Assembly: GCA_034780895.1 (NCBI GenBank)
Contig: JAUZTB010000075.1
Location: forward strand, 20,438,664 to 20,502,663
Length of the DNA: 64,000 nucleotides
Direction: 5' to 3'
From: Rhynchobatus australiae
Lineage: Eukaryota
Each line of letters begins with the position of its first letter. Position 1 is the first letter of the stretch. This document shows, piece after piece, positions 36,001-45,000 of this stretch. The position numbers are program-made.

Positions 36001-39000
36001 AATATTCTCTATTTATTATGGAGAAGGACATTTTAGTTGGAGAATTTAGGCATGACTGAAATTCCAGAAAGAAAAACATTGCATGTATTTTTTAAGGTAT
36101 CAGATGCCTTTACAGTCTTAAAGGAATTTAATTCAAGGCCTGAAGGGATGTATTCTAGGCCACTATGGGAATAAAGAGAGGATTTTGTTTGGAGTCACAT
36201 TTTTAAAAATAAATTCTGACCCCAGATGATGAGTCAGGCGATTAGGGGCAGCAAATGTCATGCGTTTAAGGCAAGTAACTACAGGCTGATGAGTCTCATC
36301 AAAATGGTAGGGGTTATTGGAAAACATCTTGAGGGGCGGGAATAACCTGCACTTGAAGGGGCAGGGATTAAACGATATTACATTGCCTATCCCTCATCAG
36401 AGGAGAAAATACCTGACTTATTTGATGGAATTTTACAAAGGCACAATTAAATGTGTGAAAAAGGGTAGTATGGTTGATGGAGACAACATGGTTTGCAAGG
36501 CCTTTCATCAGGTACCACGTAAGATTCTGGTCCAAAATGTAAGAGTGAACAGAGCTGGATAAAATTGGCAAATCAGATCCAAAGGTGACTTGCTGATAAT
36601 AGGCAAACGATTCTGGTAGAGGGTTCTTTCTGCAGTTGGAGGCCTGTGACCCCTGCTGTCTTTAAATAAACATGAACGATCTGGATGCTGATGTAGAAGG
36701 TACGATTAGCAAACCCAGACAACCTGAGGATTGGTGCTGGTGAGGTTGGTCAAGAGGGTAGACTTTGACTACAGCACACTCTGGATCAATTGGTAAATTA
36801 GACAGAGCAGCAGCAAATGGAATTTAATGCTAAAAATGCGTGGAACCTAGAGATTCTGAGAGGACTAATAAGGCTAGGAGATGAACAACAAGTGGCAGGA
36901 CTGTAGGAATAGAAGGACTTGCCCCAAGACTCCCGAGGACAGCAGCACAGAGAGATCACTTGGGATAAAATGGTATGCAGGACACNNNNNNNNNNNNNNN
37001 NNNNNNNNNNNNNNNNNNNNNNNNNNNNNNNNNNNNNNNNNNNNNNNNNNNNNNNNNNNNNNNNNNNNNNNNNNNNNNNNNNNNNGGGGGGACGGGGGTG
37101 GGGGGGGGGTTCGCTCGCAACCACGGTAGACACAGCTGGAGTAGCCTGTGCTGTTGTGTCTTCTACAGTAAGGAAGGAATTTCAGTGGAGCAGAGCAGAG
37201 GAAAAAGTTGCCCGAAATGCAGCATTTCAGCTATGAGGAGGACCAGGATAAAATCGGTCTGTTCTCCCTGGAGCCATAAAGCTGATGAGTGACCTGATGG
37301 AGCTGGGCAACATTGTGAGGGGAAGAGATGTGGTAGATGCTGGGAAACATTTCACATTAGCAGGTGTCATTAACCACAAGCTATCATTTTAAGATAAAAT
37401 ACAGCAAATTTATAGGAGATTGTTCTCACCCAGATGGGCTTGAAATATGGAAAACACTGTCTGACGGAATCATGCGGGTGGGGACTCTCACAATGTTTGT
37501 TTCATTGAGCACTTGAACCACCACAACATGGAAGATGACAGGCAGAGTGCTGGGAAATTGGACGAGTATCGGAAGCGTACTAGATGGCCGACAAGAACGC
37601 AATCGGCCAAAGTACCTGCTTTTGAGATGTATGGTTACGCTTCTATGACTTCTGGCTTCCTTTCTGCTTATCCAGTCTCGAGAAAGAGCTGATGCAACCT
37701 GTTTTACTTCTGCTGGCCGTGGACTATATCCTTCAGAGAGCCTGTAACAGCAGCAGAACCCCCATCTCGATGTGCCACATTGTTCTGTGCGAAGACAAGT
37801 AATCTTACTGGAAATTTCATTCAATTTTGTTAACTTTACTTCCCAAGAAATCACCCTCCTGAAACATACACCTGCTATAAACTACATTCACAACTTTGAG
37901 AAAGTTCCTTGTCTCTAGATTTCAAACTGAAGATTGTAACATCTTAGACCACACTGATGATACTAAACCACTGCACTTCAAGAGAGGATAATTCCACTAA
38001 ATCACTGAATGAAATTTTAACTAATTAGCAAAACCAATAGCATCCAGAATCTAACCTTGATTTTTATTTTAGCCTAGCCTGTTCCCTCATCCTTTANNNN
38101 NNNNNNTCTGGACTGAACCCTGCAGGAACGTTCAGCTGTTTCTTATTGTTGCCATGTACCTAAATGGGAACTGCATAAAGACAGCCCCAATCTGCTGTCA
38201 GACATGACCCTCATGCCTCATTTCTACACCAGACCGCTCCCCGGGCATACGCCATGGCTACCTCAATAAAGCTGTTTTGAAGACTCTCTGCCTGTTTCAG
38301 ATGAAGACCTGACCTGACCTGAAAGAGCCCAGAGCGAGAGTATATCCATCAGGCTGTGCAGCGGGATAGGCAATAGGAGAATGATGCAGCAGAGGGTTTG
38401 CCCCACTCTCTCACATTCTGGAACTCACCACAGATGCTGTATTTTACAATTCGGATTCCTCAGAGCCTCTGAGAGGGATTTTAGTCCCGAATCTTGCAGC
38501 TCATTGCCACTCAGGGACAGCTCTGTCAGCGAGCAGTTTATATTGAGGGCTGAGGTGAGATCCTCAGCACAAGAAGCTGTGAGTCCATTACTATCCAGCC
38601 TAGAGATTGAACAGGACAATGAAAAGGTGAGAGGGTACAAAGGAGAGAGACAGAGAACATGATTTCTTACATCATGGTATTTACCACAGTTTCTGTATTT
38701 TACAGTCCGGGTTCGTCAGGGCCGCAGTCACCAGTTTCATTCCTGAATCTCCCAGTTCATTCTTCCTCAGGCTAAACACAAACAGAGATCGAGTCACTTC
38801 ATGGATCTAGTGTAATTTATCTCGCCTGCCATGCAGTCTCAGACAAATTAGAACAAGATTTTCCTGCCACTGACCGCGAATCTCACTTGCCATATCCCAA
38901 TGATATATTTCGCAAGTACAGATAAGGGTAGGCTCACACATTGAATTTTAGGGCTCTGGGGAATACCATAGAACAAAAACACCTTCATGTACAAACCCAA

Positions 39001-42000: not shown

Positions 42001-45000
42001 ATTCCCCAAGTAATTAAGAAATATTTGAATCTCAGGAGCAAGAGCTTTTTACCTCTCACAAATGGTAATTGAGCAAAAATTGCTTACCTCCATTGGAGGT
42101 ACATAACACTAAGACAAAGAGAAAATAAGTGTTCTTGTGGACAGTGGATAAGTGGAGCGCTGGGGATCAGATTGGCTCAATTCTCACCACAATTGGTTTG
42201 CTTGTGCTACGTGGTCTTCAGCAGATCCAGAAGTTACAAATATTTTTTTCCAATTCCACCATACTTTGATGAATCTAATCTCTTCATTTTTGTGCCACAT
42301 ATTCACCAGTTTGACTGAAAAACCGAATTCCTACCAACTGGTGAAATAGCTAAACAATAAATGTGTCCCACAGAATCACTTGGGCCTATTTACTATTGTA
42401 ATGGCTCTAAAATGAACCTGAATGTAAGGGGTATTAGAGTTATACAACGCAGAAACAGACCCTTCGGCCCAAATCGTCCTTGCTAACCAAGGTGCCTTCT
42501 TGAACTCGTCCCATTTTCCTGCGTTTGGTCCATATCCCTCTAAACCTTCCCTATTGACACACTTGTCCAAATGTCTTTTAACGTTCTAATTTAACCCAGC
42601 ACAACACATTCCGTATTCCCACCACCATCTTGCTTGGAGGGAGTAATGTTCAACTCTTAAGCGGAAGTCCCTAACGACACATCCACTCTGAAAGTTGCCT
42701 CTTCCTTGCTTAACTGCAGGATTAATGTTCTGTTAGGCAAGTATCATTTCATCGTCTCAAAACAAGTAATCTGACACGGGCTAACACAATTTGTCCTACA
42801 AATTCACAACCCAGCGTTACACACCAACCCATTCCTCCTGATAGGAGGATTTTCACGGCATGCAGAAACACACAGTTTGGTCAGGACAGGGACTTGGCGA
42901 GAATGCAATCTCAGTATAAAAGCAACAGACCTGTAAAAAAGTTGCTGCTTTTCGTGTCTGCTCAGAATGGTTCATCAGAGCACATCTATTTACAGGTTTC
43001 GCACCGCGCCGCGAGCCGGCCAGGTGTGCGGGGCTCCGTAGAGAGTGTATGGGGGTTTCAAAGTGTGTCGGGACCCTGCCAGGTGCTTCGGGGGGTTTCT
43101 GCAGTGTATCAGCACGGTGCCAGTTCTGAGAAACGTTTCACAATGTACACAGGCCTGCCAGNNNNNNNNNNNNNNNNNNNNNNNNNNNNNNNNNNNNNNN
43201 NNNNNNNNNNNNNNNNNNNNNNNNNNNNNNNNNNNNNNNNNNNNNNNNNNNNNNNNNNNNNCACCACAATTGGTTTGCTTGTGCTATGTGGTCTTCTGCA
43301 GATCCAGAAGTTACAAATATTTTTTCCAATTCTACCATACTTTGATGAATCTGATCTCTTAATTTTTGTGCCACATATTCACCAGTTTGAATGAAAAACC
43401 AAATTCCTACCAACTGGTGAAATAGCTAAACAATAAATGTGTCCCACAGAATCACTTGGGCCTATTTACTGTGATACACATCTGGAAAAAGAAAACTTCA
43501 ATTGTTTGTTGTAATGGCTCTAAAATGAACCTGAATGGAAGGGGTATTAGAGTTAAACAACGCAGAAACAGACCCTTCAGCCCAAATCGTCCTTGCCAAC
43601 CAAGGTGCCTTGCTGAACTAGTCCTATTTGCCTGCGTTTGGTCCATATCCCTCTAAACCTTTGCCACACTTGTCCAAATGTCTTTTAATGTTCTAATTAA
43701 ACCCAGCACCAACACATTCCATATTCCCACCACCATCTTGCTTGGAGGGAGTAATGTTCAACTCTTAAGCGGAAGTCCCTAATGACACATCCATTCTGAA
43801 TGTTGCCTCTTCCTTGCTTAACTGCAGGATTAATGTTCTGTTAGGCAAGTATCATTTCATTGTCTCAAAACAAGTAATCTGACACGGGCTAACACAATTT
43901 GTCCTACAAATTCACAACCCAGCGTTGCACACCAACCCATTCCTCCTGATAGGAGGATTTTCACGGCATGCAGAAACACATAGTTTGGTCAGGACAGGGA
44001 CTTGGCGAGAATGCAATCTCAGTATAAAAGCAACAGACCTGTAAAAAGTTGCTGCTTTTTGTGTCTGCTCAGAATGGTTCATCAGAGCACATCTGTTTAC
44101 AGGTTTCACACCGCGCCGCGAGCCGGCCAGGTGTGCGGGGCTCTGTAGAGAGTGTATGGGGGTTTCACAGTGTGTCGAGACCCTGCCAGGTGCTTCGGGG
44201 GGGTTTCTGCAGTGTATCAGCACGGTGCCAGTTCTGAGAAACGTTTCACAATGTACACAGGCCTGCCAGATATGTCAAGGGATTTCAAACCGTCAGGCCC
44301 GGCCAGGTCTGTGATGGGCTTTACGGTGTGTCAGGGCCCTGCCAGCGGTGTATGGAGTTTCACAGTACGTTAGGTCCCAGCCTGGTCCGTGAGGAATTTC
44401 AGTATATTTGGATCCTGGATTTGGATCATGTGGATTCACCATGCATCCGGATGTTGACAGAGGTTTGGAGGATTTCAGTGCATATGGAAGTTCACATCAC
44501 GTAGTGGGACCTGTACAGGTGTGCATGAAGTTTCACAGTGCATCAGCAACCTGCCAGGTCCGTAGCCGAATCAATTAAACTAACACGTGAAATGATACCA
44601 AAATATTTGCAGGGTAGATGAGAAATTGGATGCATTCTCTTGACGGCTCACAGGTTGATTGTGATTGACAATGAATTCCAAGAGAACGCCATCATGTTCC
44701 CATTGGGAATTGGCCTTCTAATTCCCAGATTCTGCCAACCTCTGAACAAATGCTTGTTAAAGTTTTAGATTCCAAGAAGTTATTGTGTGAAATCTGCATT
44801 TCATTTCTTACCTTTCAATTGAGTGGGTAATTCAAATGAAGTTCGAGCCACGCTCATGTTTGCCAATTGATCAGAACCTGTTTAAATCAGTAAGTCAGGA
44901 AACCAAATCAACTAACATTATCATAAAATCTGACGTTTTAATCTGTTTTTACTTTCCCATACCGTGTTCCTGGATTTCTTTCAGTATTCTGTCCAGCTTT

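What the first reader, a model, noticed from the sequence alone, without database searches (positions are those of the whole stretch)
38685..44877. NLR-type gene with intact CARD-like and LRR exons but no NACHT exon
Seen: ATG exon, two CARD-like exons, linker, then LRR exons, all open with canonical splice sites. No Walker A/NACHT ORF lies in the ~6 kb between the linker (44812) and the first LRR exon (38771), and both gaps there have overlapping flanks, implying little missing DNA. The linker ends in phase 1 and the LRR starts in phase 2, so direct splicing frameshifts. Inference: a CARD-only decoy (cf. mammalian COP/POP regulators), a recent deletion pseudogene, or a mis-scaffold of paralogues.
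[Added by the scan's program, not by the reader: the finding's places include an assembly gap (unread letters, written N; its length is only estimated) at 39375 to 39474, 43162 to 43261. Whether the letters on both sides are continuous or in frame is not known: test that first.]
Basis: partly seen in the sequence, partly recalled or inferred. Interest (0 to 1): 0.65.

Follow-up and report, generated by a model that had tools for sequence, protein, structure and literature searches.

The report
NLR-like gene remnant lacking its NACHT exon
In a very gappy draft assembly, the front (CARD-like) and back (leucine-rich repeat) exons of an innate-immune NLR-type gene lie in order with no central NACHT exon between them, which is most likely an ordinary truncated family member and not a new kind of gene.

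Summary
The observation largely holds. On the minus strand lie E1 (52453-52256), E2 (45134-44963), a 66-nt exon (44877-44812) and five RI/NLRP-type LRR exons (38771 down to 33187). All are open and have AG/GT borders.

The two gaps were tested first. They are not holes. The flanks overlap end to start by 594 bp and about 980 bp, at 3.4-3.7 % substitution divergence. Of 13 runs of exactly 100 N, 8 show this; of the 9 other N runs, none do. One gap-free contig (39475-43161) therefore bridges the linker side and the LRR side. The collapsed intron is about 4.25 kb.

There is no NACHT. No ORF of 40 aa or more in the 64 kb carries a P-loop, and 30 interval ORFs gave no Pfam family above cut-off.

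The "two CARD-like exons" are two halves of one domain. Only E2 has independent support, a language-model lead to CARD. Splicing the linker directly to the first LRR exon gives a stop at the second codon.

Best reading (0.55): a truncated NLR-family remnant, probably a pseudogene. Rivals: assembly artefact (0.22), a working CARD-only decoy (0.10), two unrelated genes (0.08). Interest is low.

The parts
52256..52453 (-). E1: first coding exon candidate. ATG at 52453; alternative acceptor gives an exon start at 52422; donor GTAAAT after 52256; ends on a complete codon. Putative first half of a CARD-like domain.
   Evidence: Open frame and splice signals. No Pfam, PDB (natural protein) or Atlas family hit. 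AF2 on the exon alone is all helix, pLDDT 82.
44963..45134 (-). E2: 172-nt exon. Starts on a complete codon, which fits the end of E1, and ends with 1 extra base. Putative second half of the CARD-like domain.
   Evidence: Acceptor score 4.4, donor score 2.4. The top 3 named Atlas clusters are all CARD PF00619 (0.89 with 185 of 256 shared features; 0.83; 0.80), and 10 of the 10 best share that family. No Pfam CARD hit and no PDB hit.
44937..44951 (-). Read-through stop (TAA 44951-44949) five codons after E2, followed by ATTAAA at 44942-44937. A possible 3' end of a CARD-only transcript.
   Evidence: Inference only; the hexamer is common by chance.
44812..44877 (-). 'Linker': 66-nt open stretch with AG and GTAAGA. 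Takes 2 bases in and leaves 1 base out.
   Evidence: No family hit. Its phase fits E2. There is no other support.
43162..43261 (.). 100-N gap with overlapping flanks: 42185-43161 matches 43262-44269.
   Evidence: Two aligned pieces at 96.2 % and 95.6 % identity, reaching both gap edges. 33 substitutions in 969 aligned bases, 21 transitions and 12 transversions.
39475..43161 (.). Gap-free contig bridging the linker-side intron and the LRR-side intron. It holds no NACHT and carries repeat fragments.
   Evidence: Calling the fragments LINE reverse transcriptase rests on recalled motifs; Pfam did not confirm it.
39375..39474 (.). 100-N gap with overlapping flanks: 38781-39374 matches 39475-40063.
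   Evidence: 95.5 % identity over 594 bp, distance 0 to the gap on both sides. 22 substitutions in 589 aligned bases, 17 transitions and 5 transversions.
38685..38771 (-). LRR-A: 87-nt exon encoding a single repeat. It lies 10 nt from the start of the duplicated flank.
   Evidence: PDB: ribonuclease inhibitor (4per_A 1.2e-23; mouse 3tsr_E residues 59-86, 23.8 bits) and NLRP3/NLRP14.
38429..38599 (-). LRR-B: 171-nt exon encoding two repeats.
   Evidence: Pfam LRR_6 7.5e-06, 26.1 bits against a cut-off of 23.4. PDB: RI 4per_A 8.9e-56, NLRP14, NLRP3.
35301..35471 (-). LRR-C: 171-nt exon. A second copy, C', lies at 34973-34803 across the gap at 35132-35231.
   Evidence: Pfam LRR_6 1e-06 and 1.5e-06. 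The copies differ at 7 of 168 aligned bases, 5 synonymous and 2 not.
33934..34101 (-). LRR-E: 168-nt exon. A second copy at 33594-33437 is cut by the gap.
   Evidence: Pfam LRR_6 0.036, below cut-off. tblastn links it to LRR-B and LRR-C. Coordinates.
33187..33274 (-). Terminal exon with the stop codon. A second copy at 33768-33695 is cut by the gap.
   Evidence: No PDB hit for the 28 aa alone. Likeness to RI and NLRP3 C-termini is recalled only.

Best explanation
This is the remnant of an NLR-family gene whose central NACHT exon is truly absent from the assembled copy.

What remains on the minus strand is a CARD-like N-terminal domain split over two exons (E1, E2), a 66-nt exon, and about 4.25 kb further on (after collapsing the duplicated gap flanks) five RI/NLRP-type LRR exons ending in a stop.

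The intron phases are those expected if one exon of length 3n+1 once sat between the linker and the first LRR exon. Without it no CARD-LRR protein can be made. Direct splicing gives a stop at the second codon, upstream of four more exon junctions, so by general knowledge the transcript would be a target for nonsense-mediated decay. Read-through after E2 or after the linker stops within 5 or 3 codons.

The locus is therefore most likely a non-functional, truncated member of a birth-and-death NLR cluster. At most it yields a CARD-only peptide of about 127-146 aa.

Shown: exon anatomy, phases, overlap of the gap flanks, absence of any P-loop or NACHT signal.
Inferred: that a NACHT exon was once there, that E1 and E2 form a CARD, and that the locus is not functional.
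For: 1. Same strand, canonical order and mutually compatible phases for E1, E2 and the linker, and for all five LRR exons.
2. Both gaps in the interval are end-to-start overlaps (594 bp; about 980 bp). Eight of 13 100-N gaps in the window behave this way, against 0 of 9 N runs of other lengths.
3. Divergence of five overlaps is uniform at 3.4-4.8 % substitutions, with transitions outnumbering transversions. Ordinary repeat pairs in the window are only 76-89 % alike. So the overlaps are two copies of one locus and not random repeats.
4. The contig 39475-43161 has no N and links both sides without a NACHT.
5. No Walker A in any ORF of 40 aa or more in 64 kb. One strict match over all frames, in an 11-aa ORF, against 1.3 expected. 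No Pfam family above cut-off in the 30 interval ORFs scanned.
6. LRR exons are real: Pfam LRR_6 above cut-off for three exon ORFs (LRR-B, LRR-C and the second copy C'), and strong RI/NLRP matches in the PDB.
7. E2 has a CARD lead from the Atlas.
8. Background from papers (passages read). In zebrafish NLRs the FISNA-NACHT is one large exon of 1761 bp, the effector domain a separate exon and the LRRs several exons; about 10 % of copies carry premature stops (PMC11192531). In whale shark 23 of 43 putative NLRs had a detectable NACHT (PMC8455134).
Against: 1. The assembly is very poor, with 22 N runs in 64 kb. It is a mosaic of two copies 3.4-4.8 % apart, so contig chimeras cannot be excluded.
2. 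The two copies of the LRR exons differ by 6 synonymous and 5 non-synonymous changes (pN/pS 0.30, one-sided binomial p = 0.044). This hints at constraint on the LRR exons, which a dead gene would not show. The numbers are small.
3. All exons are still open and all splice sites are intact.
4. CARD identity is unproven. E1, E2 and the linker each gave no Pfam hit at E of 1 or less, and no natural PDB hit. E1 gave nothing in the Atlas.
5. The LRR exons match ribonuclease inhibitor as well as they match NLRPs, so they need never have belonged to an NLR.
Confidence: 0.55

Rival explanations
1. Assembly artefact. The living genome has a complete NLR here, or the CARD and LRR parts come from different paralogues. 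Under this reading the multi-copy NACHT exon was collapsed, left unplaced or skipped when short contigs of two diverged copies were tiled into one scaffold.
For: There are 22 N runs in 64 kb, and contigs are only about 1-7 kb long. Duplicated sequence sits on both sides of gaps, which is the signature of false duplications (PMC9516828, passages read: gaps between duplicated pairs on one scaffold are a primary mark). The upstream contig ends 10 nt before LRR-A, as if assembly broke on entering a multi-copy exon. NLR clusters are known to be hard to assemble (PMC11192531, passages read). The pN/pS of 0.30 suggests the LRR exons are in use.
Against: The flanks of both gaps overlap, so neither has room for a 1.8-kb exon. 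A hidden exon would be expected behind a sized gap, but no sized gap lies between the linker and LRR-A. The bridging contig is free of N. Identity in the overlaps (about 94-96 %) is well above that of repeat copies in the window (76-89 %), so the joins are not simple repeat-mediated errors.
Confidence: 0.22
2. A working CARD-only regulator, of COP type. After loss of the NACHT exon, E1 and E2 (with or without the linker) are expressed as a small CARD protein that competes in CARD-CARD signalling.
For: E1 and E2 are open and fit each other in phase. E2 has a CARD lead. Read-through after E2 stops after 5 codons, and ATTAAA lies 6 nt beyond that stop. Human CARD-only proteins arose by duplication of CARD-bearing genes (PMC3775265, passages read).
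Against: No expression data exist, and no second copy or orthologue is available to test constraint on E1 or E2. The CARD is not confirmed by Pfam or PDB search. A single ATTAAA is weak evidence. If the transcript splices on into the LRR exons, it carries an early stop.
Confidence: 0.1
3. Two unrelated genes that never formed one NLR: a small CARD-like gene upstream, and an LRR-only, ribonuclease-inhibitor-like gene downstream whose own 5' exon is unrecognised or missing.
For: The best PDB matches of LRR-A and LRR-B are ribonuclease inhibitors (4per_A, 3tsr_E, 1dfj_I, 1a4y_A), ahead of NLRPs. The 171-nt two-repeat exons and a short terminal exon fit RI as well as NLRP (RI gene structure is recalled).
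Against: RI scores are summed over more repeats, so the ranking does not separate RI from NLRP. LRR-A needs 2 bases from an upstream coding exon, and none with a start codon was identified. Only about 8 repeats are present, against the 15 I recall for RI. The order, strand and phases fit one former gene.
Confidence: 0.08
4. E1, E2 and the linker are chance open frames. Only the LRR exons are real, as the 3' fragment of an NLR or RI-like gene.
For: There is no Pfam or PDB support for E1, E2 or the linker. E1 has no Atlas family. ORFs of this length are common in the window.
Against: E2's three nearest named Atlas clusters are all CARD, with 185 of 256 shared features and a recognition value of 2560, above the 2300 mark. 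The E1-E2-linker phases chain correctly and the splice signals are good.
Confidence: 0.05

Closest known systems
Vertebrate NLRs with RI/NLRP-type LRRs (NLRP3, NLRP14; fish NLR-C/NLRC3-like)
   Same: Two-repeat LRR exons of 168-171 nt, all in one phase. Strong PDB matches to NLRP14 and NLRP3 LRRs. A separate N-terminal effector-domain exon set, as described for zebrafish NLRs (PMC11192531, passages read).
   Different: There is no NACHT exon or P-loop anywhere in 64 kb. Only about 8 repeats are present. The effector domain is CARD-like while the LRRs are of the NLRP/RI kind; the 5irl_A chain (rabbit NOD2 by my recall; the table calls it 'Uncharacterized protein') scores only 1.8e-09.
CARD-only proteins CARD16/COP, CARD17/INCA, CARD18/ICEBERG (and pyrin-only POPs)
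   Same: A death-fold domain left alone with an early stop, derived from a larger gene of the same pathway (PMC3775265, passages read).
   Different: Those proteins derive from caspase-1 (POPs from ASC or NLRP2/7) by gene duplication or retro-insertion, and are restricted to higher primates. Here the route would be loss of an internal exon from an NLR, the LRR exons still lie downstream, and neither expression nor function is shown.
Ribonuclease inhibitor (RNH1)
   Same: Best PDB matches. LRR-A aligns to residues 59-86 of mouse RI with 19 of 28 residues identical by my count of the printed alignment. Exon modules of 171 nt.
   Different: No start exon was found. Far fewer repeats are present. 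LRR-A is a half module. A CARD-like exon set lies upstream on the same strand.
False (heterotype) duplications beside assembly gaps
   Same: Near-identical copies on one scaffold, separated only by a gap. This is a primary mark of false duplication in PMC9516828 (passages read).
   Different: Read depth and k-mer tests, which define the class, could not be run. A divergence of 3.4-4.8 % is high for two haplotypes of a vertebrate, so very recent paralogues remain possible.

Membership tests
NLR (NACHT-LRR) family | Central NACHT NTPase domain with a Walker A P-loop | tested here: not met
   No strict Walker A in ORFs of 40 aa or more in the window. One match over all frames, in an 11-aa ORF, against 1.3 expected. 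No NACHT or related Pfam family in the 30 interval ORFs scanned.
NLR (NACHT-LRR) family | C-terminal RI-type leucine-rich repeats | tested here: met
   Pfam LRR_6 above cut-off for LRR-B, LRR-C and C'. PDB matches to NLRP14, NLRP3 and RI.
NLR (NACHT-LRR) family | N-terminal effector domain (CARD or PYD) | tested here: inconclusive
   Searched exon by exon only. No Pfam or PDB hit for E1 or E2. Atlas CARD lead for E2 only. The joined domain was not searched.
CARD-only proteins (COPs) | A CARD fold | tested here: inconclusive
   As above. AF2 on single exons gives only long helices.
CARD-only proteins (COPs) | The ORF ends shortly after the CARD | tested here: met
   Stops fall 5 codons after E2 and 3 codons after the linker on read-through, or at the second codon of LRR-A on direct splicing. 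This is in silico only.
CARD-only proteins (COPs) | Expressed and inhibits CARD-dependent signalling | not testable with these tools
   No transcript data or assay was available.
Ribonuclease inhibitor (RNH1) | LRR-only protein built from 57-aa A/B modules encoded by 171-nt exons | tested here: met
   LRR-B and LRR-C are 171 nt and LRR-E is 168 nt. RI chains are the best PDB matches.
Ribonuclease inhibitor (RNH1) | Complete array (about 15 repeats, recalled) with its own start exon | tested here: not met
   Only about 8 repeats in five exons. No start exon feeding LRR-A was found. Two N runs between LRR-B and LRR-C could hide more exons.
False duplication at an assembly gap | Duplicated pair on one scaffold with a gap between the copies | tested here: met
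   Eight of 13 100-N gaps have end-to-start overlapping flanks, including both gaps of the finding.
False duplication at an assembly gap | Half read depth and haplotype-specific k-mers | not testable with these tools
   No reads were available.

The most novel reading that the evidence does not exclude
A non-mammalian counterpart of the primate CARD-only decoys, made by a different route. An NLR lost its NACHT exon in place, leaving an expressed CARD-only peptide of about 127-146 aa that damps CARD-CARD signalling, while the still-constrained LRR exons downstream are used by another transcript.
Probability: 0.1. Interest if true: 0.5.

Novelty: new member of a known kind. Interest (0 to 1): 0.2.

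Why it matters
If the absence is real, this is one more example of how expanded NLR families shed members. It is also a candidate source of small death-fold regulators outside primates, which is of modest interest to comparative immunologists.

The more practical lesson concerns the assembly. Most 100-N gaps in this window are unmerged overlaps of two copies 3.4-4.8 % apart. These duplicate LRR exons falsely: the second copy C' of LRR-C, the cut copy of LRR-E and the cut copy of the terminal exon. They would inflate repeat and exon counts in any gene model built on this scaffold.

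Tried and rejected
- Pfam on whole-frame translations of 44800-54699 was not accepted because the translation holds stop codons. I went ORF by ORF instead.
- Pfam on E1, E2 and the linker, each alone: nothing at E of 1 or less. 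E2 had only a sub-threshold RRP4_S1 match at 0.03.
- PDB sequence search on E1 hit only designed helical repeat proteins. On E2 it gave only E of 0.95 or worse.
- Atlas on E1: no family.
- AF2 on E1 and E2, each alone: mostly one long helix (pLDDT 82 and 73). These models are not usable for a fold search, so no fold search was run.
- Complex prediction with E1 and E2 as two separate chains: no verdict (score 0.12, mark 0.34).
- PDB search with the 28-aa terminal exon: no hit.
- Rfam at gathering thresholds, ARAGORN, and TRF on 33-53 kb: nothing relevant.
- A search for a frame-restoring cassette exon in the interval gave 1 candidate (40498-40384). It looks like a repeat-derived fragment and not NACHT.
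- A true tandem duplication as the cause of the gap-flank copies was rejected for the five overlaps at 3.4-4.8 %. Their uniform divergence, and the restriction of this pattern to 100-N gaps, argue against it. It was kept for the gap at 31555, where divergence is 13.6 % and the unit ends repeat.
- Pfam did not confirm my reading of several ORFs as LINE reverse-transcriptase fragments. That label is recalled.

Full report
WHAT THE WINDOW IS
The window is a heavily gapped draft scaffold with 22 N runs in 64 kb. The longest N-free ORF is 206 aa. I do not take it for human. The only exons with clear relatives (the LRR exons) match human, mouse, pig and chicken RI and NLRP chains at the level of distant homologues, with per-repeat scores of about 15-38 bits. 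I did not try to place the organism.

GENE ANATOMY, MINUS STRAND
- E1, 52453-52256. The ATG is the first codon of its open frame. A possible acceptor would start the exon at 52422. The donor is GTAAAT. The exon ends on a complete codon.
- E2, 45134-44963, 172 nt. It has a good acceptor, starts on a complete codon and ends with 1 extra base.
- 'Linker', 44877-44812, 66 nt. It takes 2 bases in and leaves 1 out.
- LRR-A 38771-38685 (87 nt), LRR-B 38599-38429 (171 nt), LRR-C 35471-35301 (171 nt), LRR-E 34101-33934 (168 nt), and a terminal exon 33274-33187 with the stop.
- Every LRR exon takes 1 base in and leaves 2 out, so the five form one open frame of about 230 aa, roughly 8 repeats.
I could not find a separate ATG exon.

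THE GAPS, TESTED FIRST
- For the gap at 39375-39474, 38781-39374 aligns to 39475-40063: 594 bp at 95.5 % identity, 22 substitutions and one indel.
- For the gap at 43162-43261, 42185-43161 aligns to 43262-44269 in two pieces at 96.2 % and 95.6 % identity.
- In both cases the left copy ends exactly at the gap and the right copy begins exactly after it.
- The same holds for 8 of the 13 runs of exactly 100 N in the window, and for none of the 9 N runs of other lengths.
- Five of these overlaps differ by 3.4-4.8 % in substitutions, with transitions outnumbering transversions and few indels. Ordinary repeat pairs elsewhere in the window are only 76-89 % alike.
- The gap at 31555 is different. Its divergence is 13.6 % and the unit ends repeat, as in a true tandem array.
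- I read the 100-N gaps as unmerged joins between contigs that carry two slightly diverged copies of the same locus, either haplotypes or very recent paralogues. This is the gap-flanked false duplication described in PMC9516828 (passages read).
- Two consequences follow. Neither gap has room for a 1.8-kb exon. The N-free contig 39475-43161 by itself bridges sequence homologous to the intron just after the linker and sequence homologous to the 594 bp just before LRR-A.
- After collapsing the copies, the linker-to-LRR-A intron is about 4.25 kb, not the 6.04 kb seen in the assembly.
- The same artefact creates the second copies of LRR-C, LRR-E and the terminal exon. The last two are cut by the gap edges.

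NO NACHT
- No ORF of 40 aa or more in the whole window has a strict Walker A.
- Over all six frames there is one match, in an 11-aa ORF, against 1.3 expected in shuffles.
- Pfam found no family above its cut-off in 25 of the 32 N-free minus-strand ORFs of 45 aa or more, or in 5 of the 42 N-free plus-strand ORFs, in 38772-44811. The 7 minus-strand ORFs left out are the second copies inside the overlaps.
- Power is limited. A relic broken into pieces shorter than 45 aa would be missed.

THE CARD QUESTION
- I searched the model exon by exon and left the joined step out.
- E1, E2 and the linker, each alone, gave no Pfam family at E of 1 or less.
- E1 hit only designed helical proteins in the PDB, and E2 nothing better than E of 0.95.
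- The Atlas gave nothing for E1.
- For E2 the three nearest named Atlas clusters are all CARD (PF00619): 0.89 with 185 of 256 shared features, then 0.83 and 0.80. All ten best named hits share that family, and the recognition value of 2560 is above the 2300 mark. By the tool's own calibration this is a lead and not proof.
- Neither exon has a second copy in the window.
- Together the two exons are the size of one death-fold domain. They chain in phase, and by my recollection of the CARD consensus they match its first and second halves. That recollection is also only a lead.
- So the 'two CARD-like exons' are best read as one split CARD-like domain and not a NOD2-like tandem.
- The linker has no support beyond being open with AG/GT. 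By my own estimate, chance often gives that for 66 nt.

THE LRR EXONS
- They are real. Pfam LRR_6 scores above its cut-off for LRR-B, LRR-C and C', at E of 7.5e-06 down to 1e-06.
- PDB matches are headed by ribonuclease inhibitors (4per_A 8.9e-56 for LRR-B, 1.2e-23 for LRR-A) and by NLRP14 and NLRP3. The 5irl_A chain (rabbit NOD2 by my recall; the table names it only 'Uncharacterized protein') is far lower at 1.8e-09.
- RI chains hold more repeats, so the summed scores do not separate RI from NLRP.
- Between the two diverged copies, the exon parts that can be compared differ by 6 synonymous and 5 non-synonymous changes (pS 0.069, pN 0.021, ratio 0.30, one-sided binomial p = 0.044). This is a weak hint of constraint on the LRR exons.

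WHAT THE LOCUS CAN MAKE
- Splicing the linker directly to LRR-A puts a stop at the second codon after the junction, upstream of four more junctions.
- Read-through after E2 stops after 5 codons, and ATTAAA lies 6 nt beyond that stop. Read-through after the linker stops after 3 codons.
- Only one frame-restoring cassette candidate exists in the interval at my splice thresholds (40498-40384). It looks repeat-derived.
- So no CARD-LRR protein is encoded. A CARD-only peptide of about 127-146 aa is the only product I can derive.

INTERPRETATION
- The order, strand and phases fit a former CARD-NACHT-LRR gene that lacks its central exon. The linker leaves 1 base and the LRR exons need 2, as if an exon of length 3n+1 were missing.
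- In zebrafish NLRs the FISNA-NACHT is one large exon of 1761 bp, the effector domain is a separate exon and the LRRs are several exons. About 10 % of copies carry premature stops, and the clusters are hard to assemble (PMC11192531, passages read).
- In whale shark only 23 of 43 putative NLRs had a detectable NACHT (PMC8455134, passages read).
- I therefore rate a truncated family member, probably a pseudogene, as the best reading (0.55).
- An assembly artefact comes next (0.22). It is weakened by the overlaps and the bridging contig, but not excluded in a scaffold of this quality.
- A working CARD-only decoy of the kind known from primates (PMC3775265, passages read) is possible but has no positive evidence (0.10).
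- Two unrelated genes (0.08) and chance ORFs upstream (0.05) complete the list.

WHAT STAYED UNCHECKED
- The joined E1+E2 domain.
- Any homologue search in the large protein sets, which were closed.
- Any eukaryotic genome or read data.
- Supplementary files of the papers. Those of PMC8455134 and PMC11192531 may list NACHT-less NLR models.
- The letters under the N runs, which I neither filled nor looked up.

Noticed in passing
window 17281-17380, 31555-31654, 33595-33694, 35132-35231, 39375-39474, 43162-43261, 46630-46729, 48662-48761: Eight of the 13 runs of exactly 100 N have flanks that overlap end to start (29 bp to about 980 bp). None of the 9 N runs of other lengths do. The overlaps falsely duplicate LRR exons and introns.
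   Followed up: yes
window 31216-32232, minus strand: ORFs resembling a rhodopsin-type receptor (Pfam 7tm_1, E 0.0048, below cut-off) lie just downstream of the LRR gene. They sit in repeated units about 85 % alike, whose ends repeat like a true tandem array around the gap at 31555.
   Followed up: partly
window 39038-39250 (+), 40215-40595 (-), 42376-42585 (-), 47106-47879 (+), 50503-50939 (-), 54431-57369 (-): ORF fragments that look to me like LINE reverse-transcriptase and endonuclease pieces fill the introns. The motifs are recalled, and Pfam did not confirm the ORFs I scanned.
   Followed up: partly
window 52639-52925 and 56459-56737: An inverted pair of a repeat of about 290 bp, 81 % alike. 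One copy lies about 190 bp upstream of the E1 ATG. ARAGORN and Rfam call nothing there.
   Followed up: partly
window 29339-30726, minus strand: Several overlapping long ORFs (up to 206 aa) rich in Ser, Pro and Leu. They look like low-complexity DNA and not like a gene.
   Followed up: no
window 62001-64000: The most G+C-rich stretch of the window (0.518), with long low-complexity ORFs on both strands and no Pfam hit for the two I scanned. It could be a CpG-island-like region of a neighbouring gene.
   Followed up: no
window 22425-23166 and 24038-24804: A direct repeat of about 760 bp at 76 % identity, around the 4-N run at 23945. It is not an end-to-start overlap.
   Followed up: no
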